Shown here one piece after another: positions 3,808-24,532 of a stretch of DNA of 26,051 nucleotides (positions are counted from its first letter, which is position 1; each line of letters begins with the position of its first letter). Made by a program: the position numbers and the translations under genes. Below the pieces are notes generated by a model. That model had not been told where the DNA came from. It was given only the letters and a program-made list of their open reading frames with translations, and made no database searches. Source of the stretch: a virus (taxonomy: Duplodnaviria; Heunggongvirae; Uroviricota; Caudoviricetes); IMG/VR virus record IMGVR_UViG_3300015186_000011, positions 1 to 26,051 of that record, one strand, 5' to 3'.

Positions 3808-3821
3808 TGTGACATGTCACG
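3808..3821. promoter_or_regulatory. Copy 1 of the 14-bp palindromic motif CGTGACATGTCACA (read on the minus strand), between convergent genes
   Basis: Perfect 12-bp palindrome GTGACATGTCAC at 3809-3820, just after a GGCCGC-GAAA-GCGGCC hairpin (3792-3807). The identical 14-mer recurs at 22254-22267 and 24519-24532. Confidence 0.6.
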
Positions 3822-3833
3822 ATAGTTTCGTTT

Positions 3834-4092
3834 TGCACATCCCTGTGCCGCCGCCCGTCAGAAGAACCCTGCCTTGTCGTTGATGTACTCCGCGTGCGTC
3901 TGGATATCACGCAGGCATTTGCTCACACCAACGATGTAACAGAACATGGTGGTCAGCTCCGCCGCCGCGCCCGATACATCGTGCCCGTCTTCCTGTAACT
4001 GGTTCAGCAGATTCATCAGCAGTGAGTTCTCCGTCAGACCGAGAACACCAGACGGAGAATGAATCAGACTGCGGTAGCCGGGCTTCAATGGA
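3834..4092. repeat. Right arm of the ~260-bp inverted repeat (partner 2373..2631)
   Basis: See left arm; covers the 3' end of the minus-strand antirepressor gene plus ~24 bp downstream. Confidence 0.7.
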
Positions 4093-4802
4093 TAACCATA
4101 ACATTTTGTCTGTGTTTTAATTGCCTCACGAAGCGCATCTAACATCTTGACTGCCACTTCATCATTCTCTGATGCAGATCCAGCAGGGAGATACTCCCCT
4201 TCAAGCGGAACCCGAGCAACAAGAGACAACGCTTCGGCAAATTGATCTTCACCAATTTCTTTGTACGAACAGCCAAAATGAGATTTCAGTGACGACCACA
4301 TGGTGATCATCGCCTTAGCCTGTTTTTCTTTTGGCAGAGACTGACCGCGACTCATGACGAGTTGTTTAATGGCTTCCTGCTGTTCAGTTGTTATTTTACC
4401 CGGCAACGCCTTTTTAGCTTTGCGTGGGTTAACCACATGGCCTTTAGTCCAGTACTCGTAGAGCACATCGTCACACTCTTCCTGATACTGGATTACCTTG
4501 TCGCGGATTTCAGGGCGGACTTTGTTAGGGCTGATGGTTTGCAGCCAACCTGCAAGTTTGCGTAAAGCAAGACAGATAACCAGACGACGCTGAGTATCAC
4601 CGGGGAGCTGAATGGTCATTTCGACCATGCAGCTCTTAAAGCGTTGTTGCAACTTGCGGAACTGCGTTTTCCAGTCCAGCCCCATACCTTCAACGACTGG
4701 TTTCATTGGGGTGTATGGTTCGCCGTTATGATTGACAACATAAAGCTCTGCGCCGTGGAATGGCACGTTGATAGTAGATACCGCTGTTGCTATACTCGTC
4801 AT
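3858..4802 (-). CDS. ant: P22 Ant-like antirepressor (AntA / P22_AR_N-type N-terminal domain plus shared C-terminal domain)
   Basis: 314-aa ORF with AGGAA RBS. N-terminus ...GAELYVVNHNGEPYTPMKPVVEGMGLDWKTQFRKL is antirepressor N-domain-like. It sits immediately downstream of an Arc-like gene, as in P22 immI. Confidence 0.75.
   Translation of the reverse strand: MTSIATAVSTINVPFHGAELYVVNHNGEPYTPMKPVVEGMGLDWKTQFRKLQQRFKSCMVEMTIQLPGDTQRRLVICLALRKLAGWLQTISPNKVRPEIRDKVIQYQEECDDVLYEYWTKGHVVNPRKAKKALPGKITTEQQEAIKQLVMSRGQSLPKEKQAKAMITMWSSLKSHFGCSYKEIGEDQFAEALSLVARVPLEGEYLPAGSASENDEVAVKMLDALREAIKTQTKCYGYPLKPGYRSLIHSPSGVLGLTENSLLMNLLNQLQEDGHDVSGAAAELTTMFCYIVGVSKCLRDIQTHAEYINDKAGFF
4768..4796 (+). promoter_or_regulatory. 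Sigma70-like promoter (TTGATA-17 bp-TATACT) firing antisense across the ant translation start
   Basis: -35 TTGATA 4768-4773, 17-bp spacer, -10 TATACT 4791-4796. Predicted start near 4803, directly opposite the ant start codon (4800-4802) and RBS. Confidence 0.5.
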
Positions 4803-4877
4803 GTCGTTAATTCCTATACGTAGTTTTACGATACTGAAGCCCTGACGGTCTGGCCACCGTGGGGCTTCGCTGTTTTA
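4803..4877 (+). ncRNA. sar: Candidate sar-like antisense small RNA (~75 nt) complementary to the ant ribosome-binding region
   Basis: A promoter at 4768-4796 and an intrinsic terminator on the same strand (nested hairpin GAAGCCC..ACGGT-ctggcc-ACCGT..GGGCTTC at 4836-4868, then GCTGTTTTAT) bracket a ~75-nt transcript in the arc-ant intercistronic region. This mirrors the sar antisense RNA of P22 immI. Confidence 0.45.
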
Positions 4878-5042
4878 TGCCACGCTATTCTTCTCACCAG
4901 TGAGTCCATACACTTTCCTCAGCTGATAGATAATCTCTGTATTGAACTTTCGGCATTCTTTTTCGCCATTTCTTTCAATAGCTAACTTCACATCGTCCGG
5001 AAAACGAACTCGTCGTTGACACATCTCTTTTGCTTTTTGCAT
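4875..5042 (-). CDS. arc: Arc-like ribbon-helix-helix repressor (55 aa)
   Basis: ATG at 5040-5042 with a strong TAAGGAGA Shine-Dalgarno (the track ORF starts at an upstream GTG). Product MQKAKEMCQRRVRFPDDVKLAIERNGEKECRKFNTEIIYQLRKVYG resembles P22 Arc (..FNLRWPREVLDLVRKVAEENGRSVNSEIYQRV..). It lies upstream of ant and divergent from an Mnt-like gene. Confidence 0.65.
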   Translation of the reverse strand: MQKAKEMCQRRVRFPDDVKLAIERNGEKECRKFNTEIIYQLRKVYGLTGEKNSVA

Positions 5043-5056
5043 TTCATATCTCCTTA

Positions 5057-5071
5057 GCCCCACCGTGGGGC
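5057..5071. promoter_or_regulatory. Palindromic operator candidate GCCCCACCGTGGGGC (Mnt-operator-like core CCACCGTGG) at the predicted +1 of the arc-ant promoter
   Basis: Near-perfect palindrome between the predicted Pant -10 and the arc RBS. The core matches, as I recall it, the P22 mnt operator core CCACGGTGG (reverse complement). The 12-mer CCACCGTGGGGC recurs at 4854-4865. Confidence 0.5.
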
Positions 5072-5077
5072 AAAATA

Positions 5078-5125
5078 ATTGTCACACCGTGCGTCATTGA
5101 TGTCAAGCACACGGTGAGGCATACT
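5078..5125. promoter_or_regulatory. Divergent overlapping promoters: Pant-like (minus strand) and Pmnt-like (plus strand)
   Basis: Minus strand: -35 TTGACA (plus coordinates 5101-5106), 17 bp, extended -10 TGtGACAAT (5078-5083). Plus strand: -35 TTGATG 5097-5102, 17 bp, -10 CATACT 5120-5125. Inverted CACCGTG / CACGGTG half-sites at 5085-5091 and 5110-5116. Confidence 0.5.
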
Positions 5126-5162
5126 TCAATCATTGCAAGTAACTCAATATTTGGTGAAGAAC

Positions 5163-5594
5163 ATGAGCAGAGAAGATCCACAACTAAGGATCAGACTTCC
5201 CGTTGAAGTAAAAGAAAAAATAGAAATTTCTGCAAAAGCCAATAAGCGATCAATGAACGCTGAAATAGTACAACGTCTTGACACCAGCTTTCTGAAAGAT
5301 ATTCATGAAGATGACGTAATTTCTGCTTATGAAGCAAAAATTATTGCAAACAATGCACGACATGAAATATCAAATATTATTTTCAAAAGAACCTTTAATG
5401 AAATTAATAAGAAAATAACACTTGGACATACAAGTTTTTATATAAACCTTAATGACCTTGAACTGGAATCACTTGCAGATAATGATTACCAGATCATCTT
5501 TGAAAAAACATTTAATAAGCTCAATGAACTAGGTTACATCATCTGTGAAAACTCATGGGATGCAGATGGTTTTGGAATTGAAATACCTGAATAG
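5163..5594 (+). CDS. mnt: Mnt-like ribbon-helix-helix repressor with an AT-rich C-terminal extension (143 aa)
   Basis: ATG at 5163 (track ORF starts at a TTG at 5133). N-terminus MSREDPQLRIRLPVEVKEKIEISAKANKRSMNAEIVQRL closely resembles P22 Mnt (MARDDPHFNFRMPMEVREKLKFRAEANGRSMNSELLQIV). The C-terminal ~95 aa have no match I recognise and the DNA turns markedly AT-rich. Confidence 0.7.
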   Translation: MSREDPQLRIRLPVEVKEKIEISAKANKRSMNAEIVQRLDTSFLKDIHEDDVISAYEAKIIANNARHEISNIIFKRTFNEINKKITLGHTSFYINLNDLELESLADNDYQIIFEKTFNKLNELGYIICENSWDADGFGIEIPE

Positions 5595-5607
5595 GAAGAA
5601 CAAAAGG

Positions 5608-5630
5608 CGTGTACATATTACACGTCTTTA
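5608..5630 (+). terminator. Hairpin CGTGTA-catat-TACACG followed by a T-rich tract; putative terminator or operator
   Basis: 6-bp inverted repeat with TCTTTAAT downstream, between the Mnt-like gene and the membrane-protein gene. Confidence 0.3.
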
Positions 5631-5684
5631 ATACAATTGAAAAACGCCACATTACTGATGTATGTTACAACAAGGAGCGATATT

Positions 5685-6248
5685 TTGAAAACCATATCTA
5701 TATTAAAGGTTGCATTAGGCGTCGCTATTATTTTGACTCTCTCAATATTGTTTTATTTTTACCACAAAAAAACTGCTATTGCTCTTGATGGTCACGCGGC
5801 AAACTCATTTTTCTCAGAGTACATAGTGCCGCTATCAGGAAGCGGTATAACAAATAAATATACTGACTATGACATCAAATATGGAATTGATGATGGGGAG
5901 ACTATTGTATTACATGTAATCATTAAAAACCTAATGACAGTAAATAAAAATACAGACTTCAACGATAAAAATACAATACATCACAACAACAGCAAAACAT
6001 TAATTTCTTATAGTAGCAACATCTATACGGATAAATACCTAAAATACATATCAGAAGATACAATAAAAGAAACCCGCGAAAAGTTAAAAAACATATATTG
6101 TGCATCCGGCAGTTTTCACAAATTATCGCCGCAAGAGCGTTTATTCTACGAAGCAAGAAAACAACGTAAGTCAATAATATTACATTATTATGCTGATTCA
6201 GGGGAGTCACTCATATTTAATATTGGGGTTTCCCCTGAATCATGCTAA
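5685..6248 (+). CDS. AT-rich moron: membrane-anchored protein of unknown function (~188 aa), candidate superinfection-exclusion or abortive-infection factor
   Basis: TTG start at 5685 with AGGAG 8 nt upstream (alternatives: ATG 5658, track TTG 5637). N-terminal hydrophobic helix ISILKVALGVAIILTLSILFYFY, then an Asn/Lys/Tyr-rich domain. GC content is far below the flanking phage genes. Confidence 0.5.
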   Translation: MKTISILKVALGVAIILTLSILFYFYHKKTAIALDGHAANSFFSEYIVPLSGSGITNKYTDYDIKYGIDDGETIVLHVIIKNLMTVNKNTDFNDKNTIHHNNSKTLISYSSNIYTDKYLKYISEDTIKETREKLKNIYCASGSFHKLSPQERLFYEARKQRKSIILHYYADSGESLIFNIGVSPESC

Positions 6249-6259
6249 AGGTGTTTAAC

Positions 6260-9200
6260 TCACCGCATCACCGGATCCACCTGGTTTATTAGTGGCGCAA
6301 TCCAGAACAGGTTATTGCCGGGTATCAGGGTTCGGACATTATGCACAATACGATCACCGGCATCACCATTCAACACTCCTGCGGTCACATCAATGATGCT
6401 ATCCGCAAGACCAAATGACGGTCCGAATAGAGATCCTACGAATCCACGACTGGCATACCTAGACTGTGTGCCAGTGCCAAATAAAGCCCCCAGCCCAACA
6501 GCACCACCAGTAGCCTTTTCAGCCATGTTGTTATATTCCATCAATGGCCCAAGAATACCGGATCTATCTATACCCTCAAGCACCAGCTTCTCTGGTGACC
6601 AGTCAACATTTTTCCCTTTCGATGCTTCTTTAAGCGCATAGACCAGTGAGCCAAGAGCAATCTGAAATGCAGTGCCATAATAAAATTGCGCAGTTCCTTC
6701 CTGTAACCCACCAAGTAGCGCACGGTTGTATGAAGCCGTTGTGAATGATTTAAACTGAAATATCGTTCGCCCCATTGGAGTACTCGCCCATAAAGGTGTG
6801 TCACCAATACCGGGGGTGATGATAGTGTTATTAACGTCTTTCAGAACCGCTGACTGGAATACTCCGGCAACGTACTGATCGTCCCATTTATCAAAGTTAC
6901 CAATGTGCCATCCATCAATTACCTCACCATGTTTCTCGAACTCACTGCGAATACGCGCAGCCATATTGTCGTTGATACCGAGTTTTGCCATGCGACGTGC
7001 AGAAAACGCACCAGACAAAATACCGTCTGACGTGAGCATTCCGTTCATGGATTTGTTTATGTCATTAAATCGATCCATGAGTGTCAGCTTGCCGAAGGCA
7101 TCAGTAATTCGCTCCATTCCTGCTTCGACTGCTGTTGTCCTGGAAGAACTGTCAACAAGATCACCAATTGCACGAGAACGTGAATGTAGTACAGTTTCCA
7201 ATCCAATCCCCATCTTCAACATCTCTTCTTTGCTGGCCTTAAATGCCGGTGATTGGGATATCTGAGAAGCATAGCCTTTCATGGTGTTACGGAAACCATT
7301 AACCATAACCCCTCTGGCCAGATCTGGAATAGCTGATACTGTCATTCCACCGAGTTTGGTCGTGAAGTTCACATCCCGCAGAAAAGCGCCAGCACGAACA
7401 AAAAACGAAGACGGGTCATCAGGCATACCATATGTACCAACAAGACGATCGCGTAATGCTGTTATGTCTCTGAGATCATTTGCTCTTGATTTTGAAAGTC
7501 TGGACTGTTCTTTCCGTAATTCCTTTTCGTACTTTCGCATTAATGAATCGAGTTTACCCTGAGGAACAACTTCACCATTGCTCTCATAACGTGCTTTCAG
7601 ATTTGCCACACTTTCGTCATATTTCGCCTTTATTTTTTCAGGCACTTCCCGTAACAGACTGTCATATTCGTCCTCAATTAATTGCAGACGCTCAGTCATA
7701 GTTCGTTTGCCAAATGTTCTCGTCAACTCAATTTCTGCTGCCGCTTCACGGATATGACGTTGCAGCACGTAATTCACATCACTTTCAAGATAATCCCTGA
7801 TAAGACTATCAGGAACATTTAATGTTCTTTCTTTCGTACTACCTGCGGCTTTTACAGAAAATACGCTGACAAAATCCTGTGGAACCTTAGCACCAGTAAT
7901 TTTATTAATTACGATATCCGCTGCAATTTCAGCATCCTCAGGATCCAGTGTTTTATTGCCTCTCGACCACCAGTCAACCAAAATACGTCGAAATTTATCG
8001 CGTTCACTGATTATTTTTCCAACTTTATATATACGTGGAAAATAGCTTGCCTGGCCTAATGCTTTCAGTTCTTCATCTGGCGGTAATAAACCAAGCTTTT
8101 GCATTTCAACCTTCACCCGATTTAATACAGTTCGCATCGCCTGCGCCGTTTCCTGAACAACAGGATTAGCATGCACATCACCGCTTCGCATAGCATTCCC
8201 AACCTGCTGACGAAATGAATCAAAACTCATGTCGCCACCATCAGCTTTATACTTTGCGTATGCCTGTTTATTTCCGACAACAACAGCAGCTTCTTCACGC
8301 TGCCATCCACGTGTACGGGTTTCTACAGCTACCGGTGTTTCAATCCCCCTTTCATTTCCTTTAAGGGTGAAATTATTTTCGGCTAACTCCAGCGTTGTTT
8401 TTCGCACTGTCTTGGACGGAGACTCCATTAACCTTGTCAAAGGAGTAAGATAGCTCCCTGCTTTCCATGCAGCCTTTCCAACCCACCCACCGGAAACAGG
8501 GGTTAAATCATCCAGAGTCGCTGTATCAATTTTCATAGCACCAACACTACCACCATCAGAAAGCGAAGCGGCAGCCCTGTCAGTCGCTGATGTAATGCTC
8601 ATATTATCAAGAGCATCAGCAACCTCACGCGTGGCTGCAGCCCGGACGGATGGCGAAAGCGCAACACCAGCACTGGCAAACACGCCGCTCATCATCGCAC
8701 CCGCTGCAACGTGAGCGGCACTTTCACCCCATGAGCGTGTTATTTGCTGATTATTCAGCACAACCTCGCTTAATGCTGTACCGGCAGCACCAATCGCAAT
8801 CTGTGAGCCAATACGCGCCAGTGCCCCTCCTTGAGCACCGGGGATAAACATTGACGCAACAGTAACCGGATCCATTCCCGCAGCAATACTGGCAAGAGTT
8901 CCAACTACGCCAGCATCAGACAATAAACGTCTGTCTTCATTTTCATCATCTATCTGCTGCTTAATCCACGCCGTTTCCTCTGGCGATCGGGAATCTGCAA
9001 ATTTCGCCCCCCAGTATTCATAACCGTGCAACTCATTTTTATCAGCATATGGGTTATAACCTTCGACCGGTTCAAACTGTCTGGCTGGTCGGAAAAAACC
9101 AGCCAGAATATTGTTCTGTCGCATTGCAGCCCCCCATACGGAAGGCTCCGGTGGCAATGGCTCAGGATTAGCCCCTTCCGGAAGGGCAACATCAAACCCA

Positions 9201-9274
9201 GTTTGTTCCGGCAAAACATTACCTGACGGGATCAGTCCGTTATTAAGATCTTCAGCTTGTGCATAAACTGGCAT
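6260..9274 (-). CDS. Large internal virion / ejection protein (1004 aa), T7 gp16-position analogue
   Basis: Last and largest ORF of the coupled structural operon; its start overlaps the upstream stop (TAATG at 9274). Ala/Gly-rich with coiled-coil segments. Assignment is by size and synteny only. Confidence 0.55.
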   Translation of the reverse strand: MPVYAQAEDLNNGLIPSGNVLPEQTGFDVALPEGANPEPLPPEPSVWGAAMRQNNILAGFFRPARQFEPVEGYNPYADKNELHGYEYWGAKFADSRSPEETAWIKQQIDDENEDRRLLSDAGVVGTLASIAAGMDPVTVASMFIPGAQGGALARIGSQIAIGAAGTALSEVVLNNQQITRSWGESAAHVAAGAMMSGVFASAGVALSPSVRAAATREVADALDNMSITSATDRAAASLSDGGSVGAMKIDTATLDDLTPVSGGWVGKAAWKAGSYLTPLTRLMESPSKTVRKTTLELAENNFTLKGNERGIETPVAVETRTRGWQREEAAVVVGNKQAYAKYKADGGDMSFDSFRQQVGNAMRSGDVHANPVVQETAQAMRTVLNRVKVEMQKLGLLPPDEELKALGQASYFPRIYKVGKIISERDKFRRILVDWWSRGNKTLDPEDAEIAADIVINKITGAKVPQDFVSVFSVKAAGSTKERTLNVPDSLIRDYLESDVNYVLQRHIREAAAEIELTRTFGKRTMTERLQLIEDEYDSLLREVPEKIKAKYDESVANLKARYESNGEVVPQGKLDSLMRKYEKELRKEQSRLSKSRANDLRDITALRDRLVGTYGMPDDPSSFFVRAGAFLRDVNFTTKLGGMTVSAIPDLARGVMVNGFRNTMKGYASQISQSPAFKASKEEMLKMGIGLETVLHSRSRAIGDLVDSSSRTTAVEAGMERITDAFGKLTLMDRFNDINKSMNGMLTSDGILSGAFSARRMAKLGINDNMAARIRSEFEKHGEVIDGWHIGNFDKWDDQYVAGVFQSAVLKDVNNTIITPGIGDTPLWASTPMGRTIFQFKSFTTASYNRALLGGLQEGTAQFYYGTAFQIALGSLVYALKEASKGKNVDWSPEKLVLEGIDRSGILGPLMEYNNMAEKATGGAVGLGALFGTGTQSRYASRGFVGSLFGPSFGLADSIIDVTAGVLNGDAGDRIVHNVRTLIPGNNLFWIAPLINQVDPVMR

Positions 9275-17263: not shown

Positions 17264-17278
17264 GGTTAATAACAGGCG

Positions 17279-18271
17279 TTACACCACACGGGCTTCTGTT
17301 TCCAGAAGCGCATCAGTTTCACGGATTGGTACACCACGGAATGAAGTCCACCACTCGCCTTCTGTCTCTTTTACGCTGATCGCCAGAGATGTTTTCTCCA
17401 GAGATTGCAGATCAAGAGCCTGGCCTACAGTGCGGTTCATGTAGAACACCGGGCGACCCATTCCACGGTTTGGAATGCGATGCAGTGCTTTAACCATCAA
17501 CTTCGCAATATTTGCGGCAGAGGAAGGTTCTGAAAGATTGCTGACATCGATGTTTGCAATGCGAACAACATAACGCCAGTCACGCAGAGCAAGTCCGTTG
17601 TCCCATTTGTAATGGGTGCGATAGCCTTCGTACTTGCCGCCATTAGCATCTTCCAGTGTCACCTGGCCTTTATCTTCCATCTGGATGCCAGCCTTCTGCC
17701 CTTTCGGGAAGATGCCATGCACGGTGTTTTCGCCCCACACCACTAACCAGATTGAGGTGTTATCTGTACCCGTGCCACCAGCATCAATGATGTTCTGAGC
17801 ATTACCTGCAGACAGGCTGGAATAGCGGGAGGACAGTCCCATAAACTGCTGAGGGTTAACGCTGGAATCACCATAAAACAGCGTCTGCGCCATCTGCTGA
17901 TTCATCGCTTCAATAAATGCGCGGTCTTCAGACAGGCGGAATTCGGCGGTATTGCCGTTCAGATCAGCCAGTGACTTATCGACTTCAGCATAGGTTTCCA
18001 GCATGCCAACGGAATCGGTTACCTGCACTGTGGTTGATTTGCTTGGCTGTACGCCATAGTTCAGCAAACGCCAGGTAGCTGAAGGTAAACCAGAACGAAT
18101 GGTGGTTCGGTGTCCGGTAGGAAGGTTCCCTTCGACAAAAGGCATATCCTGAAGGATCGGGTTAGTTTGACCGAGAAGCTCGATAATCTTATCGACTTTC
18201 CCGTTTGGATCGACGCGCTTACCCCAGTCAGCCAGCGTTAGCGCAGTTAAGCCTTTAACAGCCATTGTCAT
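17279..18271 (-). CDS. Major capsid protein (330 aa)
   Basis: Strong RBS AAGAGAGGAA; located right after the scaffold-like gene; size and order are typical of podovirus capsid genes; a 3' hairpin follows. Confidence 0.6.
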   Translation of the reverse strand: MTMAVKGLTALTLADWGKRVDPNGKVDKIIELLGQTNPILQDMPFVEGNLPTGHRTTIRSGLPSATWRLLNYGVQPSKSTTVQVTDSVGMLETYAEVDKSLADLNGNTAEFRLSEDRAFIEAMNQQMAQTLFYGDSSVNPQQFMGLSSRYSSLSAGNAQNIIDAGGTGTDNTSIWLVVWGENTVHGIFPKGQKAGIQMEDKGQVTLEDANGGKYEGYRTHYKWDNGLALRDWRYVVRIANIDVSNLSEPSSAANIAKLMVKALHRIPNRGMGRPVFYMNRTVGQALDLQSLEKTSLAISVKETEGEWWTSFRGVPIRETDALLETEARVV

Positions 18272-18279
18272 TTCCTCTC

Positions 18280-18981
18280 TTATTTGCCATAGAGCACTTC
18301 GGCCGCACTACGCTGGCCTTCATTACCACCGGTGACCATGCCATCTTCAGACATCGCCTTTCCGATTTTCACGAACGTTTTGACCAGATCAGGGTGATTA
18401 CCCAGCCCGGTGGTGTTCAGATATTCTTTGAGTTCAGGTGTCCCGAACTGGTCAAGCGCACGCTGTGCGGCGCTAAGGTTAGAAATCAACTTGTCGCCAC
18501 CGATTTCTTTGTCAGCTTTTACATCAGCAGCCCACTGCTCGGTTGTTTTCTGCCAGGCTTCTGCCTGGCGCTGCTGCACACCTGCCAGAATCTTCGGATA
18601 AGCATCAACCAGCTTTTGCGCTTGCTCGTTGGTCAGGTTAAGTTCTCGCGCCACCGGCTCGAATTCCTTCAACGCTTCTGTATCCAGCTCTACGCCTTCG
18701 GCAGCCTGAAACTCGTACTTCTCAGGCGCACCCTCTGGTTTATCGCCGTCCTTTTTTTCATCCTGCTTATCGTTTTCAGGCTTTTTGTCATCAGCAGGTT
18801 TATCGCCATCAGCAACAGGTTGTGGCTTATCACCTTCCGATTGTGATGGATCACCAACTGGAGCAGGGTTATCACCTGCAGGCGCTGACGGTTCTGACGC
18901 AGCCGGAGCTGCTCCACCATCGACTGGTTGCTCATTGCAAAGACGGCGATACAGCAAACGCTCAAATAAATTCATGATCAC
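18280..18981 (-). CDS. Putative scaffolding protein (233 aa)
   Basis: Highly acidic low-complexity N-terminal half (PAPVGDPSQSEGDKPQPVADGDKPADDKKPENDKQDEKKDGDKPEG) and helical C-terminal half; sits between portal and capsid genes. Confidence 0.55.
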   Translation of the reverse strand: MIMNLFERLLYRRLCNEQPVDGGAAPAASEPSAPAGDNPAPVGDPSQSEGDKPQPVADGDKPADDKKPENDKQDEKKDGDKPEGAPEKYEFQAAEGVELDTEALKEFEPVARELNLTNEQAQKLVDAYPKILAGVQQRQAEAWQKTTEQWAADVKADKEIGGDKLISNLSAAQRALDQFGTPELKEYLNTTGLGNHPDLVKTFVKIGKAMSEDGMVTGGNEGQRSAAEVLYGK

Positions 18982-19274
18982 TCCTGTTCACTGGCCTCTT
19001 TGGCCATCTTCAAATACTGTTCAGGGCAATGCGCCATAACGCGCTGAAACAGTTCCAGCGCCAGATTGCGTTGCCCCTCATTAAATGCCATTGCCATAGC
19101 GTCCATCGGTGAGATAGCGGAAAACACACGGCCTTTCTCCAGCACCGACCAGACAACGCGACGCCCCTGTTCACTGCTCATGACAAAGCGAATGTCATCA
19201 ATTTCACGCTGTGCCATGTCACGTTGTTTACGGGCGTTTTCTTCTTTCAGTTGATCATCTTCGTAATCTGTCAT
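18978..19274 (-). CDS. Hypothetical small protein (98 aa) between portal and scaffold genes
   Basis: Start overlaps the portal stop and the stop overlaps the scaffold start; unknown function. Confidence 0.45.
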   Translation of the reverse strand: MTDYEDDQLKEENARKQRDMAQREIDDIRFVMSSEQGRRVVWSVLEKGRVFSAISPMDAMAMAFNEGQRNLALELFQRVMAHCPEQYLKMAKEASEQE

Positions 19275-20950
19275 TGTGATTGCCCACCCTGACCACTAAC
19301 TGCATTCGCCATAGCTGACAAAACACTCGGATCCGAAGTTTTAGCTTCGCTTAGCGTCTTGGCGCCCTGTGCCGCCGCCATTCCCATCGCCATCATTTGT
19401 TGCTGCTGTTGCTGCTGTGCCCGTTGCTGGCGAGCCTGCTCAACCTGTTCCTGCGGAACAATGACGGTTGGAGACACTCCGGACATATCAGCGAATGCAT
19501 CGATCGCCTGATCAACGTTGAGTTTGTCGAGAGCTTCTGGTTTCGCTTGCGCAAGTTGACCAATGAAGTTGACCGTAGACGCCAGACTGGACAGGCCGAT
19601 AGACTTCTGCGCCTGAGCCATGACGGAAATGTATTCGACCTTCAGGGGCATACCTTCCATCGCGTCAGGCGGTGGCGGCAGCATGTTTTTACGCACCATC
19701 ATCGAGAAAGCGCGGTCAATGAGAGGATTAAGACATTCGTCGTTCAGACGCTCCAGAACCGGCCCCAACATCAGAAGTTTTTCTTCTTTCATTTCGATCA
19801 CCGCTTCAACAGGCATCGAGCGGGTATTGATGTTCTGCAACATCATGAACAGATCGACAAAGTAGGCGCTGTTAATGATTTGACGAGTGTCCTGAATGTC
19901 TGCCACCAAATCTGCTGTACTGGGGTTAACCAGATAAGCAGGCCTGAAGCCATCCTGACCAGTAATCTGATCGATATACGTGATGTCGCCAGGAAGAAGG
20001 GAGGCGCGCTGATTCTTGAGGGAAGTCGGAGCAACCATCGGCGGATTGGTGGCTTTATCAATCAACTGCGACTTGCGCTTCTGGAGAAGCTGCAATGCCT
20101 TAACAGGTCCAAGCGCCAGCATACCCGGGCATGATGATCCATAAACATCTTCGCCATTAACTTCCCAGCGCGGAGCCATAATTGGAAACTCATCAAATCC
20201 GGACTCACGCAACAACTTGTCGTTATCGCCACCAACCTCGTAATAAACCGATTTGAATGGCTTGTTCTTGCTATCCAGCTTCGATGTATCGCGGTCAATG
20301 TTCGGGTAAACCGAATGCATCACGTCAATCCACTTCTCGTAGTTGCCGCTTTCCCACATGCTTTTTACGGATTCGCTGACGTTATTTAGCCCGAACTCCT
20401 GAACAAGCTGACGAACAGTCATAGAGAACTTGCGAAAACAGGTGTCAACACTGCCACGAGGTGAGTTAGCCAGGTAGTAACTGCCTATCGGGAATGGCAT
20501 TGTGCGAATGATGTCCTCGTCATCCTCCAGCACTGCCATTGCACCAGTGCTGTATGTGCCGAGGCTTCCGTATAACTGCGGAAGAGACTGGTAGAGATTC
20601 GACTTATTGAACATATCGTTCATGCGGTTCTGAACTGCCTCAAGCCACAACTTAACAGGGCCATAATCCATCATTTCAGGATCTGGCGTAGCCAGGCGAA
20701 ACCACGGACGCGCGGGGCTTGTGATGCCTGACATCATGCCGCTGGCGAGAGTGCGCGCCGCCATAGTCCCGGTCGAATCAATAATGCGTGTATTGCGCCG
20801 ATCGTTACGGTTGGCCTCAGAAGTCAGAAAGCGGGAACCACGCGGGTTGATGTAATCACTCAACTCGCGCCAGTGCGGCTCGAACGACTGACGCTCGCTT
20901 TCAAGTTGTGCGAACTGTTTGTTCAATCGCTCTTTAGTTGTTTCCGCCAT
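19271..20950 (-). CDS. Portal (head-to-tail connector) protein, podovirus type (559 aa)
   Basis: Size, position downstream of terminase, and Gln-rich C-terminal tail (QQRAQQQQQQQMMAMGMAAAQG). RBS GGAG 9 nt upstream of the ATG at 20950. Confidence 0.7.
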   Translation of the reverse strand: MAETTKERLNKQFAQLESERQSFEPHWRELSDYINPRGSRFLTSEANRNDRRNTRIIDSTGTMAARTLASGMMSGITSPARPWFRLATPDPEMMDYGPVKLWLEAVQNRMNDMFNKSNLYQSLPQLYGSLGTYSTGAMAVLEDDEDIIRTMPFPIGSYYLANSPRGSVDTCFRKFSMTVRQLVQEFGLNNVSESVKSMWESGNYEKWIDVMHSVYPNIDRDTSKLDSKNKPFKSVYYEVGGDNDKLLRESGFDEFPIMAPRWEVNGEDVYGSSCPGMLALGPVKALQLLQKRKSQLIDKATNPPMVAPTSLKNQRASLLPGDITYIDQITGQDGFRPAYLVNPSTADLVADIQDTRQIINSAYFVDLFMMLQNINTRSMPVEAVIEMKEEKLLMLGPVLERLNDECLNPLIDRAFSMMVRKNMLPPPPDAMEGMPLKVEYISVMAQAQKSIGLSSLASTVNFIGQLAQAKPEALDKLNVDQAIDAFADMSGVSPTVIVPQEQVEQARQQRAQQQQQQQMMAMGMAAAQGAKTLSEAKTSDPSVLSAMANAVSGQGGQSQ

Positions 20951-20964
20951 TTCAATGACTCCGG

Positions 20965-21171
20965 TTACTGACCAAGCAGCGTTTTACCGCTGGTATTAGC
21001 GGTTGATGTGTCGCCCTGAGAACCGGTAAGCAGCGTAGAACTACGACCAGCAGCAGCGCGACGGCGACGTGTTTCTTCGTCGCGGGCATCAACAACGGCG
21101 GCATCCTGCTCCTGTGGTGCTGCCTGAACTTCTGGTGTTGCAGGCACTGATGGTGAGCTACCCATGCACAT
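20965..21171 (-). CDS. Hypothetical small protein (68 aa) directly upstream of the portal gene
   Basis: ATG at 21171 within CGGAGTCATTGAT-ATG; the portal gene has a near-identical initiation region CGGAGTCATTGAA-ATG. Low-complexity acidic/Arg-rich product, so coding status is uncertain. Confidence 0.35.
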   Translation of the reverse strand: MCMGSSPSVPATPEVQAAPQEQDAAVVDARDEETRRRRAAAGRSSTLLTGSQGDTSTANTSGKTLLGQ

Positions 21172-21197
21172 ATCAATGACTCCGTACGCAATTAAAT

Positions 21198-21277
21198 TAT
21201 TACCAATTTAACCACATATGATTTATTTATCGTAGAAGGTTGACATTTGACGCGTGAATTATTACCTTTCAGGTAAC
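21198..21277 (-). promoter_or_regulatory. Conserved bipartite upstream element (copy B) ahead of the portal operon
   Basis: Plus-strand tattacc 21198-21204, aaccacatatg 21210-21220, tattacctttcaggtaa 21260-21276. Same elements and order as 1201-1268 upstream of the tailspike gene. Confidence 0.5.
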
Positions 21278-21598
21278 TAAAGAGCTCATTCCGGCTACTA
21301 ACCTGACTGGCTTGTCGTTAAATTGAACAGGTGGAGTGAGATTTTATTTTGAGCAGTACGGCGTATGGCACATGCGCCGATAGCGGTCTGGATACGTTTA
21401 AGGGGCACCCTCCCTTGCTCGGGCAAACGAACCAGGTAGCCGGAATGTGCAAGTCGAGCGGTTTTATTCCGCGCACGGGGATTCACCATCCCGGCGATTC
21501 GGTGTGACGCCTCGGAAGAGACGAGGGTACAACGATGAGAGCATTTATGGAGCCGCGACAAAGTGTGGCGCCTTAACAGGCTAAGTGCTCTCAGCGTT

Positions 21599-21675
21599 GT
21601 GGCATTAGCTCAGTTGGACAGAGCAACCGCCTTCTAAGCGGTTGGTCGCAGGTTCGAATCCTGCATGCCACGCCA
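21599..21675 (+). tRNA. tRNA-Arg, anticodon UCU (reads AGA), with encoded CCA
   Basis: Cloverleaf read by hand: acceptor GTGGCAT/ATGCCAC, D-arm GCTC..GAGC, anticodon stem ACCGC/GCGGT with loop CTTCTAA (anticodon TCT), T-arm GCAGG-TTCGAAT-CCTGC, discriminator G and CCA. Acceptor stem differs from host argU as I recall it, consistent with a phage-borne copy. Confidence 0.8.
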
Positions 21676-21718
21676 GAATCACGCCTAAGGACCGTGATAC
21701 CAGAAGTTCCAGGTGCTT

Positions 21719-21761
21719 GGCGGTGATGGTTTCCCTTGAAGGACTATCACCGCCCTTTTTA
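21719..21761 (+). terminator. Rho-independent terminator downstream of the tRNA
   Basis: GGCGGTGAT...ATCACCGCC stem (9 bp) followed by CTTTTT. Confidence 0.6.
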
Positions 21762-21838
21762 CAGCAGGACGCCATTGCGATGACTTCATGCTGTAAACCC
21801 GTACAGCCACGGAAGGCAGAACTCATTGCTTCCAGTTC

Positions 21839-21862
21839 GCCCGGTTCGCCGGGCATTTTTTT
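21839..21862 (+). terminator. Rho-independent terminator-like hairpin immediately upstream of the Gp49-like gene RBS
   Basis: GCCCGG-ttcg-CCGGGC followed by ATTTTTTT; the AAGGTGAG RBS of the next gene starts right after the U-tract. Confidence 0.6.
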
Positions 21863-21878
21863 AAGGTGAGATTAGACT

Positions 21879-22250
21879 ATGAGTGACAAAGACATTGAAT
21901 CTGAAATTCAGGCTAAAGGTTTAGCCGCGCCGCGCGTTACGCCAGACCATATCGAGAGCATTATTGCTCAGGAGGCATATTTCACAGCAGAAGATGGTGT
22001 CTTTGGCGTAGCCATAAAAGCGAAACATACTGGCGGAGAGGTAAACTACCAGCCGCACGAATCACTTTCTCTGCTGACTTTCTGCGTTCTGGTGCTGCGC
22101 AACGGCTTCACCGTCACCGGAGAGAGCGCCTGTGCAAGCCCGGAAAACTTTGATGCGGAAATTGGTCGGAAGATTGCCCGGCAGAATGCTGTAAACAAAA
22201 TCTGGATGCTTGAAGGTTACTTGCTGAAGCAGAAGTTAAGCGAGCAATAA
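21879..22250 (+). CDS. Phage Gp49 / Sf6 gene-66 family protein (123 aa)
   Basis: MSDKDIESEIQAKGL...LSLLTFCVLVLRNGFTVTGESACASPENFDAEIGRKIARQNAVNKIW matches my recollection of this conserved small phage protein family. Confidence 0.6.
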   Translation: MSDKDIESEIQAKGLAAPRVTPDHIESIIAQEAYFTAEDGVFGVAIKAKHTGGEVNYQPHESLSLLTFCVLVLRNGFTVTGESACASPENFDAEIGRKIARQNAVNKIWMLEGYLLKQKLSEQ

Positions 22251-22253
22251 CAC

Positions 22254-22267
22254 CGTGACATGTCACA
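22254..22267. promoter_or_regulatory. Copy 2 of the 14-bp palindromic motif CGTGACATGTCACA
   Basis: Exact 14-mer starting 4 bp after the Gp49-like stop codon and just before the terminator hairpin. Confidence 0.6.
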
Positions 22268-22270
22268 AAC

Positions 22271-22298
22271 AGCCAGCCGATGAGCTGGCTTTGTTTTA
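22271..22298 (+). terminator. Rho-independent terminator (AGCCAGC-cgatga-GCTGGCT then TTGTTTTA), partly bidirectional
   Basis: 7-bp perfect stem with a U-run on the plus strand and an A-rich tract upstream; sits between the convergent Gp49-like and terminase large subunit genes. Confidence 0.65.
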
Positions 22299-22340
22299 TC
22301 CTCACCAGAGGATATCTCCGTCATTATCCCCGCTAACGGA

Positions 22341-23816
22341 TTAAGCATAGGGATCGTAATCTGTAATGGCCTTGCCTTGCTGGTTCTGCTGCCCGGGAAT
22401 TCGCAGACGCTTAGACACAGGGAACGCAAACGTCAGCAGTAGCGCATCGCCTTTACCCGGCGAACGCCCAAGCCGCTCCTTGATATCTTCCTTCGGTTCG
22501 ATAACGATTTTACCGTCCACTCGAACTTTGTACTCTGCCGCCGACAGGTCGTCCGCTGTTTCCTGGTCATCCAGCATGCCGCCCAGCCTCAGCCATGTCT
22601 TGCATGAGTTGAACATCTCCCCACGCTTGTTGAGCATCTGCGGGTCAGTAGACGCGCCACCGAACGGAACAAGTTGCCATGTGCGCCCCCAACCGTCACC
22701 GATTGACTTCAGCCCGGTACCGTAACCGAAGTCGATGAACACCGCGTCAGCCTGATACTGGTCTTCAAAGTCAGCGATACGCTTTGCCATAATCAGATCG
22801 TCAGTGGTCTTGTTGCCGGTCCACAGCACCTTACTGTGCAGCCCCTGCCGCAGATATATCACCGCGTCATCAACACCGGAGTATGCCGGGTCAACGCCGA
22901 TTATCACCGGAGCATGTGCAACCTGCGCAGCGGTGACCACCCGTTTCATTGCCTCGTCAGTAAGTCCGGTAGGGATAAACTGCAATTCAGATGCATCCGG
23001 GAATATGCCGCGCACACGGATTTTAACGAAGTCGCTATCTTCCCCGTAGTCATCAACCCATTTCTGCAACTGCTGTTTGTTAGTGCCTTCCACCGTCCGG
23101 CTGTCAATCTGCGCAGTTTTCCAGCGGTGTTTATATTTGCGGAAACATTCGCGGAAACGTCCGGTATTACGCGTCGGGTTTCCGAACGCCACCCAGATAA
23201 TCTCAGTGTCTTCGTCCGTTAGCGCACCCTCGGCAACTTCCCACACCAGATCCGCAATGTTCGACGCTTCATCGAATACCACAATGATGCGTTTGCGCTC
23301 GTTGTGTAGTCCGGCGAATGCCTCAGTGTTGTGCTCAGACCAGGGGATTGCGTCAGCTCGCCACCGCTTGTCGTGTCCAGGATCATTGCTGTACATCGCG
23401 GTAGCGGTACAGGTAAACCAGTCTTTCGTGATAGCAAGGTTCGACCACTTGATAATTTCCGGCCAGGTCTTCGTTCGTAGCTGGTTGTCGGTGTTGGCGG
23501 TCACCACAACCTTACAATCCTCGCAAGTGGACATGCCCCAGTTGATCAGCATTGAGATGAATGCGGATTTACCAATACCGTGACCAGAAGCACGTGCCAG
23601 CATAAGCGGCTGATATCGCGTCTCTGGATTCTGCAGGTGATCACGTATCTCTCGGAACGCATCAGCCTGCCATTGACGTGGGCCGGTAGCATGTGCCAGT
23701 TCAGTCCCCTCTTCCCCCCACGGGAACGCATAGAGGGCATAGCCAAGCGGATCGTGAGTGAACCCTGCAATATCCTCGATCAACTGCTCTTCAGGAGATA
23801 ACGCTGTATCTGTCAC
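22341..23816 (-). CDS. Terminase large subunit (491 aa)
   Basis: Size and order (after the small subunit, before portal); N-terminal ATPase-like region and C-terminal nuclease-like region with conserved acidic residues (VVFDEASN, IIGVDPAYSG). Confidence 0.8.
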   Translation of the reverse strand: MTDTALSPEEQLIEDIAGFTHDPLGYALYAFPWGEEGTELAHATGPRQWQADAFREIRDHLQNPETRYQPLMLARASGHGIGKSAFISMLINWGMSTCEDCKVVVTANTDNQLRTKTWPEIIKWSNLAITKDWFTCTATAMYSNDPGHDKRWRADAIPWSEHNTEAFAGLHNERKRIIVVFDEASNIADLVWEVAEGALTDEDTEIIWVAFGNPTRNTGRFRECFRKYKHRWKTAQIDSRTVEGTNKQQLQKWVDDYGEDSDFVKIRVRGIFPDASELQFIPTGLTDEAMKRVVTAAQVAHAPVIIGVDPAYSGVDDAVIYLRQGLHSKVLWTGNKTTDDLIMAKRIADFEDQYQADAVFIDFGYGTGLKSIGDGWGRTWQLVPFGGASTDPQMLNKRGEMFNSCKTWLRLGGMLDDQETADDLSAAEYKVRVDGKIVIEPKEDIKERLGRSPGKGDALLLTFAFPVSKRLRIPGQQNQQGKAITDYDPYA

Positions 23817-24409
23817 TGATTACCATCCTGACGTTCTTTGAGTCGCTTCCTGGCTGCCGCTATGCGATCAGCAATTGTCACATTCACATTAACATCCAGG
23901 CGTTCTTTGAATGCGTTGACGTCGACGTGCTTACCAATCAGTTCGAGGTTCTTCACCTTGTCAGGCCATTTAATTTTTTTGAGGATTGTCTCTATCGAAT
24001 CCTCGTTCATGTTCATGATGGTCGATGACAGATCAAAGCCACTAAGCGTAGTGCGCCAGATTTTCGGCCACTCGCGGATTGGCTTAAGGCTCCCATCGTC
24101 GTTGAGGATATCAATCACGTCCATCTGGTCGATCTCCACCAGGCGCATGAGAACGTAATCGGCACTGACGCGCATTCGTTTGTTGCGCTCCTCCATCAAC
24201 TCGGCAATCCGTTTTTGAATGCGTTCATCGCGCATCATGACACTGGCTTTAACTGCCGCTGTATTTGGGGAGAATCCTGCGTTAATCGCTGCCTGAGTCT
24301 GGTTTTCAGGCGTTTTGATGTATGACTGGCAATAAGCCTCCTGCATTGCGGTTAGTGGCTTAAATTGCGTTGATTTGCGTTTATAGGTTTTAGGTTCAGC
24401 AGGCATCAT
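23813..24409 (-). CDS. Terminase small subunit (~198 aa, Terminase_2-like)
   Basis: Probable start is the ATG pair MMPAEP.. at 24409 with a GGTGG RBS (track ORF extends to 24487). AINAGFSPNTAAVKASVMMRDERIQKRIAEL resembles the small-terminase HTH region. Stop overlaps the large subunit start. Confidence 0.7.
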   Translation of the reverse strand: MMPAEPKTYKRKSTQFKPLTAMQEAYCQSYIKTPENQTQAAINAGFSPNTAAVKASVMMRDERIQKRIAELMEERNKRMRVSADYVLMRLVEIDQMDVIDILNDDGSLKPIREWPKIWRTTLSGFDLSSTIMNMNEDSIETILKKIKWPDKVKNLELIGKHVDVNAFKERLDVNVNVTIADRIAAARKRLKERQDGNQ

Positions 24410-24451
24410 AACCACCCTGGTAATTGTTACCGTTGTGGTAATAGTACCATG

Positions 24452-24478
24452 CAAAATAAAGCCGCCATAGTTGGCGGC
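24452..24478 (-). terminator. Rho-independent terminator upstream of the terminase genes (tR'-like position)
   Basis: Minus strand GCCGCCA-acta-TGGCGGC followed by TTTATTTTG, between the 115-aa zinc-ribbon gene and the small terminase gene. Confidence 0.65.
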
Positions 24479-24518
24479 AGTATTCAAAACCCATCAAATT
24501 CATCATGCATAATCTACT

Positions 24519-24532
24519 CGTGACATGTCACA
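24519..24532. promoter_or_regulatory. Copy 3 of the 14-bp palindromic motif CGTGACATGTCACA, overlapping the stop codon of the zinc-ribbon gene
   Basis: Exact 14-mer; each half contains GTGACA, a 5/6 match to the -35 hexamer TTGACA, in both orientations. Confidence 0.6.

What the first reader, a model, noticed from the sequence alone, without database searches (positions are those of the whole stretch)
3808..24532. A 14-bp perfect palindrome CGTGACATGTCACA occurs three times, always at a gene 3' end next to a terminator
The exact 14-mer is found at 3808-3821, 22254-22267 and 24519-24532. Three exact copies of a 14-mer in 26 kb cannot be chance. Each lies within a few bp of a stop codon and beside an intrinsic terminator hairpin, at junctions between the accessory cassettes and core modules; copies 2 and 3 flank the terminase gene pair. 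Each half contains GTGACA, a 5/6 match to a -35 hexamer, in both orientations. Possibilities include a binding site for a dimeric phage regulator (for example the late-gene activator or antiterminator acting near the tR'-like terminator at 24452-24478), or a recombination/module-boundary sequence. I cannot match it to any operator consensus I know.
Basis: seen in the sequence. Interest (0 to 1): 0.75.

Follow-up and report, generated by a model that had tools for sequence, protein, structure and literature searches.

The report
Phage regulator's conserved palindromic DNA site
The repeated palindrome is very probably the DNA docking site of a small, uncharacterised phage protein encoded right beside one copy; gene and site travel together through many unrelated phages, and the site resembles the bacterial chromosome-organising site matS with one central base missing.

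Summary
The three copies are real and not chance. The perfect palindrome is 12 bp (GTGACATGTCAC); the 14-mer is asymmetric, and the copy at 3808 lies on the minus strand. The window is an epsilon15/phiV10-like prophage. All three copies keep their positions in phiV10 and epsilon15 although the flanks have diverged.

The key result concerns copy 3, which overlaps the stop codon of the 112-115-aa protein (epsilon15 gp49 / N15 gp46 family, PHROG 536). Homologues of that protein occur in unrelated phage types: epsilon15-like podoviruses, myovirus ZF40, Pantoea AH07, P2-like Yersinia phages and N15-like plasmid prophages. Nearly all of them end in, or within 10 nt of, a GTGAC-NN-GTCAC palindrome, whatever lies downstream. 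In Vibrio siphoviruses the nearest copy lies about 230 nt downstream.

Spacing is strictly 2 bp: 208 hits against 0-3 for any other spacer. The flanks are Y/R, giving YGTGACNNGTCACR.

I conclude this is the protein's cognate operator. Its action is inferred only: probably a roadblock or insulator at operon ends, with LacI-O3-like autoregulation. The late-promoter/-35 reading is not supported. The half-sites equal matS (MatP), but the spacer is one bp shorter. Homology to MatP is unproven.

The parts
24519..24532 (.). Site (a): YGTGAC-AT-GTCACR palindrome (core 24520-24531). It overlaps the TGA stop (24528-24530) of the regulator gene. This is the primary, always-conserved copy.
   Evidence: Present in 79 of 80 close IMG/VR relatives. 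Same register in 22 of 26 species-level prophages and in epsilon15, 65FD, Omnitron, N15, KpLi5, AH07 and Yersinia P2-like phages.
24528..24875 (-). Gene for the 112-115-aa regulator (epsilon15 gp49 / phiV10 p55 / N15 gp46 family; PHROG 536). Annotated homologues start at codon 4 (about 24866). It has a basic N-terminal helix, a strand-helix-helix segment and a C-terminal Cys4 motif.
24453..24478 (-). Intrinsic terminator (hairpin 24461-24478 plus T-run) that ends the early operon, 40 nt past site (a).
22254..22267 (.). Site (b): a palindrome between the terL-proximal hairpin and the stop codon of the convergent cargo gene.
   Evidence: Conserved in phiV10 (2262) and epsilon15 (2142). Present in 51 of 76 relatives, next to at least 5 different cargo genes.
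22271..22297 (+). Terminator hairpin shared by the cargo gene (plus strand) and the end of the terS-terL unit.
21879..22250 (+). Cargo (moron) gene of Pfam family PF13876 (N4 gp49 / Sf6 gene 66). Its stop lies 3 nt before site (b).
3808..3821 (.). Site (c): a palindrome at the distal end of the late region, abutting a terminator. Here it is preceded by the arc-ant cassette.
   Evidence: The equivalent copies phiV10 19493 and epsilon15 19517 lie at the end of the structural operon.
3783..3808 (-). Intrinsic terminator (hairpin 3791-3808 plus T-run) immediately after site (c).
19210..19223 (.). Degenerate copy with one mismatch in a half-site (GTGCC), inside a coding region. Probably not functional.
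   Evidence: Present in phiV10 (5306) but absent from epsilon15.

Best explanation
The palindrome is the cognate double-stranded DNA recognition site of the small phage protein encoded at 24528-24866/75 (minus strand). The full site is 14 bp, YGTGAC-NN-GTCACR: two GTGAC half-sites at a fixed 2-bp spacing.

The protein and a site that overlaps or abuts its own stop codon form a self-contained module. That module has been passed among many temperate phages of Enterobacterales and Vibrionales. A symmetric dimer, or two dimers on 7-bp subsites, would bind the two half-sites.

Steps shown here:
- gene-site co-inheritance;
- strict spacing and symmetry;
- positional conservation of three copies in epsilon15-like phages;
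- selective conservation of the motif while its flanks diverge.

Steps inferred:
- Physical binding by this protein.
- The regulatory outcome. Every copy lies in transcribed DNA at the end of a transcription unit, in the order gene stop, site, terminator, and not at a conserved promoter. I therefore think the bound protein acts mainly as an elongation roadblock or insulator at operon boundaries.
- Self-limitation at its own gene. RNA polymerase stalled at a site covering the stop codon would yield stop-less transcripts, as LacI does at O3.

The confidence of 0.6 applies to the statement as a whole. I put about 0.8 on 'this is the protein's binding site' and about 0.35 on the roadblock/autoregulation outcome specifically.
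For: 1. Three exact copies occur where about 0.02 are expected.

2. The same three positions hold in phiV10 and epsilon15 (about 77% identity overall), with the 12-mer intact and the flanks diverged.

3. Homologues at 32-65% identity occur in ZF40, AH07, N15, KpLi5 and Yersinia P2-like phages. Each has GTGAC-NN-GTCAC on or beside its stop codon, and each genome carries 1-3 copies where 0.03-0.05 are expected. In Vibrio K233 the nearest copy lies about 230 nt downstream.

4. Larger samples agree: 79 of 80 IMG/VR relatives, 49 of 52 loci in the Yersinia/Vibrio-type set and 22 of 26 species-level prophages in identical register. The downstream sequence falls into at least 8 unrelated classes.

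5. Spacing control: the N2 spacer gives 20, 132 and 56 hits in three locus sets. Every other spacer (N0-N6) gives 0-3, the everted arrangement gives 0, and P2, which lacks the gene, has 0.

6. Flanks are Y at -1 and R at +1 in 65 of 67 distinct contexts. The two sides vary independently, as expected for half-site readout rather than RNA pairing.

7. The protein has a basic helix, a strand-helix-helix pattern and four invariant C-terminal Cys. PHROG 536 is labelled 'transcriptional regulator'.

8. The stop codon of the upstream gene lies 0-10 nt from the site in nearly all contexts. The LacI-O3 roadblock is an established precedent (PMC3711431).
Against: - No binding experiment exists, and none can be simulated here.
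- The half-sites are invariant across lineages, so there is no protein-DNA specificity covariation to clinch the pairing.
- Some homologues lack a site at the stop: Vibrio (+226 to +238 nt), two Erwinia/Pantoea prophages (+193 and +284), E. sichuanensis (none) and Aeromonas (degenerate).
- Site (b) is dispensable. It is absent in 25 of 76 relatives and point-mutated in 4.
- A strong roadblock at (b) would hinder late transcription, unless the portal unit has its own promoter. That promoter is inferred only from the ATTACC dyads.
Confidence: 0.6

Rival explanations
1. Late-promoter / Q-like module. The palindrome supplies a -35 (GTGACA) or a Q-binding-element-like site for the 115-aa protein. 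That protein then activates or antiterminates late transcription through the tR'-like terminator in front of terS.
For: - The gene sits where lambda Q sits, as the last early gene directly upstream of the late operon.
- A -10-like hexamer lies 17-18 bp after GTGACA in three unrelated spacers: CATGAT here, TAAATT in epsilon15 and 65FD, TAACAT in Omnitron.
- A terminator follows closely.
- In Vibrio K233, copies lie upstream of the holin gene and 19 nt before the terS start codon.
Against: - In the class-(ii) relatives the palindrome is followed at once by an RBS and a 70-aa ORF, with no -10. The CATGAT here is part of that ORF's remnant.
- N15, KpLi5 and the K233 copies are also followed directly by an RBS and ATG.
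- Copies (b) and (c) have no -10 and abut terminators.
- Phages with their own Q or Ogr also carry the pair.
- There is no similarity to any Q family.
- Intragenic copies occur in N15 repA, AH07 Q and ZF40.
Confidence: 0.12
2. Host-factor site. The motif is a matS-like or SlmA-box-like sequence bound by host MatP (or SlmA). That would tie phage DNA to Ter-macrodomain or nucleoid-occlusion machinery.
For: - The half-sites are identical to matS, GTGAC[AG]N[TC]GTCAC (PMC3603311 and PMC3116907).
- The outer 4 bp and the 12-bp length match the SlmA box.
- All hosts found fall in the MatP-bearing clade.
Against: - The spacer is 2 bp in 208 occurrences, against 2 with 3 bp. A 1-bp change rotates the half-sites by about 36 degrees.
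- Binding by a host factor would not explain why the site is welded to the stop codon of one particular phage gene.
- E. coli and Salmonella prophages avoid true matS (PMC3603311).
- SlmA-box positions 5 and 8 differ (from my own knowledge of the consensus GTGAGTACTCAC).
Confidence: 0.07
3. Recombination / module-boundary sequence. The palindrome is a crossover or cleavage hotspot at which cassettes are exchanged.
For: - Homology between relatives breaks exactly at the motif edge at sites (a), (b) and (c).
- At least 5 different cargo genes end 4-5 nt from site (b).
- The unit at (c) sits next to an inverted ant-like gene relative to phiV10.
- The left flank of epsilon15 site (c) resembles the 3' end of the regulator gene.
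Against: - Any conserved functional element inside variable DNA will look like a joint.
- No dedicated recombinase or nuclease co-occurs with it.
- 12-14 bp is too short for homologous recombination.
- Intragenic copies in N15, ZF40 and AH07 are not at joints.
- It does not explain the fixed register with the stop codon.
Confidence: 0.08
4. RNA-level element. The transcript forms a small hairpin bound by the protein's arginine-rich N-terminus and zinc motif (N/boxB-like or Mu Com-like), controlling termination or translation of the next gene.
For: - All copies lie in transcribed regions, next to terminators or directly 5' of an RBS.
- The N-terminal helix is Arg/Lys-rich.
- The protein carries a small zinc motif, like Com (from my own knowledge).
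Against: - The hairpin is marginal: -1.2 kcal/mol, z = 0.
- The stem bases are invariant, without covariation, while the 'loop' centre varies. That is the opposite of known RNA-hairpin recognition.
- The flanking Y/R positions vary independently.
- Strict two-fold symmetry is typical of duplex DNA sites.
Confidence: 0.08

Closest known systems
matS / MatP (Ter macrodomain organiser of E. coli and relatives)
   Different: matS is 13 bp (N3 spacer) whereas this site is 12 bp (N2) without exception in the window. The sites are carried by phages, not by the chromosome terminus. The protein lacks MatP's four-helix bundle and coiled coil and has a Cys4 motif instead. No sequence homology is detectable (hhalign probability 0.1%).
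LacI autoregulation by roadblock at O3
   Same: An operator lies at the 3' end of the regulator's own gene. There, bound protein truncates the transcript before the stop codon and the product is SsrA-tagged (PMC3711431).
   Different: Nothing here has been shown experimentally. In this case the operator actually contains the stop codon, and further copies sit beside terminators of other units.
Lambda-type Q gene - QBE/pR' - tR' late switch
   Same: The last early gene encodes a small zinc-containing DNA-binding protein. Its DNA site lies immediately downstream, and a terminator sits in front of the late genes.
   Different: There is no conserved promoter or pause element at the site, and no homology to Q. 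The pair also occurs in phages that have their own Q or Ogr. Extra copies lie at operon ends and inside genes.
SlmA-binding site (GTGAGTACTCAC)
   Same: It is a 12-bp palindrome with the same outer GTGA...TCAC (PMC3116907).
   Different: The inner four bases differ (CATG versus GTAC). SlmA is a host TetR-family protein with no link to the phage gene.
Omega (pSM19035) and other ribbon-helix-helix regulators that read 7-bp subsites
   Same: The half-site centres are 7 bp apart, and TGTCACR resembles the omega heptad WATCACW. Inverted subsites are bound by dimers of dimers (from my own knowledge).
   Different: There is a single inverted pair rather than an array. The fold assignment is not confirmed.

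Membership tests
matS (MatP site) | 13-bp consensus GTGAC[AG]N[TC]GTCAC | tested here: not met
   The window has 3 sites with an N2 spacer and none with N3. Across all regulator-bearing loci the count is 208 N2 against 2 N3. Consensus taken from PMC3603311.
matS (MatP site) | Bound by MatP; confined to the chromosomal Ter region | not testable with these tools
   The sites are phage-borne. Prophages of E. coli and Salmonella are reported to lack matS.
MatP protein family (PF06303 + PF17414) | Sequence or fold homology of the partner protein to MatP | tested here: inconclusive
Ribbon-helix-helix DNA-binding proteins | N-terminal beta strand followed by two helices, dimerising to insert a two-stranded sheet into the major groove | tested here: inconclusive
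Lambda-type Q / late promoter module | A promoter (-10 at fixed distance) and promoter-proximal pause associated with the binding element | tested here: not met
   Class-(ii) relatives, N15, KpLi5 and K233 have an RBS and ATG directly after the site and no -10.
Lambda-type Q / late promoter module | Regulator homologous to a Q family | tested here: not met
   No Pfam, NCBIfam or PDB sequence match.
CRP site | TGTGA-N6-TCACA | tested here: not met
   Here the sequence is TGTGA-N4-TCAC(G/A). The consensus is from my own knowledge.
cos / pac packaging site | Coincides with physical genome ends, or is recognised by terminase | tested here: not met
   The phiV10 record starts inside the palindrome only because the record ends at the p55 stop codon. 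terL is PacB/Sf6-like, i.e. headful. The motif co-occurs with the regulator in cos phages (N15, P2-like) that have unrelated terminases.
N15 SopB centromere (IR1-4) | GTGCGACC-NN-GGTCGCAC | tested here: not met
   The sequence differs (PMC7205306 Table 4). The N15 copies of our motif are at 28550, 33237 and 39269.
3'-operator roadblock autoregulation (LacI-O3 type) | An operator for the gene's own product at the 3' end of the gene | tested here: met
   The stop codon lies inside the site, or within 10 nt upstream of it, in well over 100 loci, provided the protein is the binder.
3'-operator roadblock autoregulation (LacI-O3 type) | Truncated stop-less transcripts and SsrA tagging when the protein is bound | not testable with these tools
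   Needs 3' end mapping and tagging assays.

The most novel reading that the evidence does not exclude
Temperate phages of the MatP-bearing gamma-proteobacteria carry a compact MatP/matS-like system of their own. It would consist of a ribbon-helix-helix protein, evolutionarily related to or convergent with MatP, that reads GTGAC half-sites at a spacing one bp shorter than matS. That spacing would keep it orthogonal to the host. The protein would mark or bridge a few landmarks on the phage genome, organising or insulating it, or interfering with Ter, MukBEF or divisome functions. The family could also bear on the unexplained origin of MatP.
Probability: 0.12. Interest if true: 0.85.

Novelty: new variant of a known kind. 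Interest (0 to 1): 0.6.

Why it matters
- It gives a widespread, unnamed phage protein family a concrete, testable DNA target. About 18% of complete E. coli genomes carry this prophage segment, and homologues occur in at least six phage types.
- It points to an unusual regulatory layout: an operator fused to the regulator's own stop codon, with further copies paired with terminators at operon ends. That may be a general way for phages to insulate transcription units and to limit the regulator's own level.
- The identity of the half-sites with matS, at a spacing that should avoid MatP, raises a directly testable question: is there cross-talk, or deliberate orthogonality, between phage and host chromosome-organising systems?
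- The motif is also a practical landmark for annotating module boundaries in epsilon15-like prophages and reporter phages such as phiV10.

Tried and rejected
- **cos site.** Suggested because the phiV10 record begins inside the palindrome. Rejected: the record simply ends at the p55 stop codon, and the terminase is the headful type.
- **N15 SopB centromere.** Rejected on sequence.
- **Prophage-repressor operator.** The epsilon15 record annotates 'repressor' sites near terS, but these are a different dyad, ATTACC-N5-GGTAAT.
- **CRP, LexA and other host consensus sites.** Spacing or sequence do not fit.
- **Site (b) as part of the PF13876 moron cassette.** Rejected: 23 loci have (b) with other cargo genes and 4 have the moron without it.
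- **Sequence homology to MatP.** hhalign is negative. My third protein search, with MatP as query, returned only near-identical E. coli sequences, so no diverse MatP profile could be built.
- **Structure.** The AF2 monomer has low confidence and Foldseek against PDB was uninformative.
- **Literature.** A search for the motif string gave no hits. The phiV10 and ZX5 papers say nothing about it.

Full report
**What is in the window.** The window is an epsilon15/phiV10-like (Uetakevirus) prophage, 97% identical over 90% of its length to Escherichia phage TL-2011b. Its late (virion) operon lies on the minus strand. Related segments occur in 978 of 5426 complete E. coli genomes.

**Checking the observation.** CGTGACATGTCACA is exact at 22254-22267 (+), 24519-24532 (+) and 3808-3821 (minus strand).
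- The 14-mer is not a perfect palindrome. The perfect palindrome is the 12-bp core GTGACATGTCAC.
- The generalised motif GTGACNNGTCAC is expected about 0.02 times in the window and occurs three times.
- A one-mismatch copy at 19210-19223 lies inside a gene. It is shared with phiV10 but not with epsilon15, so I treat it as probably non-functional.

- Copy 3 contains the TGA stop of the 115-aa ORF and lies 40 nt before the terminator hairpin 24461-24478.
- Copy 2 lies 3 nt after the stop of a plus-strand PF13876 cargo gene and 3 nt before hairpin 22271-22290.
- Copy 1 abuts hairpin 3791-3808, but lies 36 nt beyond the stop of the ant-like gene.

**Conservation within the phage family.** phiV10 and epsilon15 each carry the 12-mer at the same three places:
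- (a) on the stop codon of the last early gene (p55/gp49), in front of a terminator and terS;
- (b) between the hairpin after terL and a convergent cargo gene;
- (c) at the end of the structural operon, directly before its terminator. In epsilon15 this copy again contains the stop codon of the last gene.

Epsilon15 is only about 77% identical overall and its intergenic flanks are largely different, yet the 12-mer is intact at all three places.

The phiV10 record begins inside the palindrome only because the depositors ended the record at the p55 stop codon. That fact, together with the PacB/Sf6-type (headful) terminase, removes the cos-site idea.

Among 80 close IMG/VR relatives:
- Site (a) is present in 79.
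- Site (b) is present in 51 of 76 informative loci. It sits next to at least five different cargo genes whose stop codons end 4-5 nt from it, is absent in 25 of the 76, and carries a point mutation in four of those.

So (a) is the primary copy and (b) is dispensable.

**The decisive comparison.** The 115-aa protein has no Pfam or NCBIfam match. It falls in PHROG 536, labelled 'transcriptional regulator'. tblastn found homologues in 151 phage records of quite different kinds. I fetched representatives and read the DNA at the end of each homologue:

| Phage (type, identity to the window protein) | Site at or near the regulator's stop codon | Other copies in that genome |
|---|---|---|
| Pectobacterium ZF40 (myovirus, 65%) | GTGACATGTCAC, 3 nt after the stop | two |
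| Pantoea AH07 (59%) | GTGACCTGTCAC on the stop | one exact copy |
| Yersinia P2-like phages (about 42%) | GTGACGCGTCAC on the stop | none |
| N15 and Klebsiella KpLi5 (about 35%) | GTGACTGGTCAC on the stop | two in N15 |
| Citrobacter Omnitron, Salmonella 65FD | GTGACATGTCAC on the stop | not examined |
| Vibrio K233 (33%) | nearest copy about 230 nt downstream | three in all, including one 19 nt before the terS start |

Each of these genomes holds 1-3 copies where 0.03-0.05 are expected.

Larger samples agree.
- All but three of the 52 loci examined in the Yersinia/Vibrio-type set have a palindrome at or within 10 nt of the stop. The exceptions are the two Vibrio-type loci, where it lies about 240 nt downstream, and one distant homologue.
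- 22 of 26 species-level prophages have the TGA stop inside the palindrome in the same register. They come from Citrobacter, Klebsiella, Kluyvera, Pantoea, Erwinia, Rosenbergiella, Yersinia and other genera.
- What follows the site is unrelated from case to case: at least four different terminators, LexA-box promoters, or the RBS of another gene.
- In close relatives the homology breaks exactly after ...GTCACGA.

The gene and its site are therefore one module.

**Anatomy of the site.**
- With the same half-sites, a 2-bp spacer gives 20, 132 and 56 hits in three locus sets. Spacers of 0, 1, 3, 4, 5 or 6 bp give 0-3 each, and the everted arrangement gives none. Phage P2, which lacks the gene, has none.
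- In 65 of 67 distinct contexts the base before the core is a pyrimidine and the base after it a purine. In the 20 sites of the eight complete genomes the two sides vary independently: TT 5, CC 5, mixed 10. That is what half-site readout of duplex DNA predicts, and not what an RNA stem predicts.
- The central two bases are lineage-specific: AT, GC, TG/CA, AC.
- As RNA the palindrome folds with only -1.2 kcal/mol.

All of this fits a symmetric dimeric DNA-binding protein that reads YGTGAC twice.

**The protein.** An alignment of divergent members shows:
- a basic N-terminal helix;
- a short hydrophobic strand-like segment (KIELVL) followed by two helices, a ribbon-helix-helix-like pattern;
- four invariant C-terminal cysteines, plus one in helix A.

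**Relation to known sites.**
- matS, the MatP site of the E. coli terminus, is GTGAC[AG]N[TC]GTCAC (PMC3603311, PMC3116907). The phage motif is matS with the central base removed.
- MatP binds through a ribbon-helix-helix domain (from my own knowledge).
- All hosts found belong to the MatP-bearing clade.
- However, the spacing differs without exception in the window, and profile comparison with MatP is negative.
- Prophages are reported to avoid true matS.

So this is a resemblance, not membership.

The SlmA box shares only the outer GTGA...TCAC. The N15 SopB centromere is a different sequence. The 'repressor' sites annotated in epsilon15 are a different dyad, ATTACC-N5-GGTAAT. That dyad also occurs in this window, just upstream of terS and of the portal unit.

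**How it most likely works.**

*Shown:* co-inheritance of gene and site, symmetry and spacing, and positional conservation.

*Inferred:* the protein binds the site.

The promoter reading fails the comparative test.
- In class-(ii) relatives the site is followed at once by AAGGTG-ATG and a 70-aa ORF. The spacer in this window, including its -10-like CATGAT, is a deletion remnant of that ORF.
- N15, KpLi5 and two K233 copies are likewise followed directly by an RBS.
- Phages with their own Q or Ogr also have the pair.

What the copies share is that they lie in transcribed DNA at the end of a unit, in the order gene stop, site, terminator. The upstream stop codon lies 0-10 nt from the site, or inside it.

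A protein bound there would stall RNA polymerase before the stop codon is transcribed. That is how LacI limits its own synthesis at O3 (PMC3711431). This explains the otherwise odd rule that the reading frame never runs through the site. I therefore favour an elongation roadblock or insulator, with self-limitation at (a) and reinforcement of the bidirectional terminators at (b) and (c).

This is compatible with late expression only if the terS and portal units have their own promoters, as the ATTACC dyads suggest. That step is inference.

Antitermination, looping between sites and genome organisation remain open.

**Rivals.**
- A module-boundary or recombination role fits the exact coincidence of mosaic joints with the motif. 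It lacks a recombinase and does not explain the intragenic copies or the stop-codon register.
- A host-factor (MatP) site does not explain the linkage to one phage gene or the spacing.
- An RNA element is contradicted by invariant stems, a variable centre and a negligible folding energy.

**Novelty.** I found no paper containing the motif and no characterised member of the protein family. It is a regulator-operator pair, which is a known kind. Three features are unusual and apparently undescribed: the operator is fused to the regulator's stop codon across many phage lineages, auxiliary copies are paired with terminators, and the half-sites are those of matS. I rate it a new variant of a known kind, of moderate to good interest. 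The regulatory mechanism needs experiments.

Noticed in passing
window 24426-24442, 24408-24424, 21261-21277, 2692-2708, 1252-1268: A second over-represented dyad, ATTACC-N5-GGTAAY, gives 10 strand hits where 0.17 are expected. It lies just upstream of terS, upstream of the gp3/portal unit, and in the right-hand accessory region. The epsilon15 record calls the equivalent sites 'repressor' binding sites. They probably mark the promoters or operators of separate late units.
   Followed up: partly
L130, L132, L137, L143, L144, L156, L165, L167, L169, L170, L174, L179 (IMG/VR contigs): Unrelated, mostly high-GC environmental phage contigs carry dense arrays (6-12 per 300 bp) of GTGACA/TGTCAC half-sites in direct and inverted order, next to DUF1376-like or primase-like ORFs. 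No PHROG 536 homologue was detected in the fragments. This may be a different system that uses the same half-site.
   Followed up: partly
window 3780-3880 versus L002 (phiV10) 19440-19570: The motif-plus-terminator unit is identical in both phages. The 3' end of the ant/Bro-like gene (..CAAGGCAGGGTTCTTCTGA) lies on opposite sides of it, in opposite orientation. This is an inversion or mosaic joint right at the motif.
   Followed up: partly
L007 10269-10481 versus window 24479-24518: The 40-nt spacer between site (a) and the terminator in this window is a deletion remnant of a 70-aa ORF (MPKIRYDLEDMRDN...) that is present in about a third of close relatives.
   Followed up: yes
L269, L270, L274 (Citrobacter werkmanii, Pseudocitrobacter, Kluyvera prophages), 30-40 nt after the regulator stop: LexA-box-like CTGT-N8-ACAG sequences follow site (a) in some relatives. 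This suggests that an SOS-controlled gene, perhaps an antirepressor, is inserted there.
   Followed up: no
L087 (Vibrio phage K233) 19491: This phage carries one true 13-bp matS (GTGACACCGTCAC) in addition to three 12-bp sites.
   Followed up: no
L086 and L215-L256 (Yersinia P2-like prophages), 24-30 nt after the site: A conserved extra half-site (GTGACG.. or ..GCGTCAC) lies downstream of the full palindrome, separated from it by an AT-rich stretch and followed by a terminator.
   Followed up: partly
window 2982-3530 (+), 3858-4802 (-) and 4875-5063 (-): The accessory cassette carries a YafO-family toxin homologue and a P22-like arc-ant (immI-type) pair, as annotated in TL-2011b.
   Followed up: no
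L003 (epsilon15) 26618-26629: A degenerate copy (GTGACATGGCAT) overlaps the TGA stop of the Rz gene in the same register as the true sites. It may be a decayed site or a chance match.
   Followed up: no
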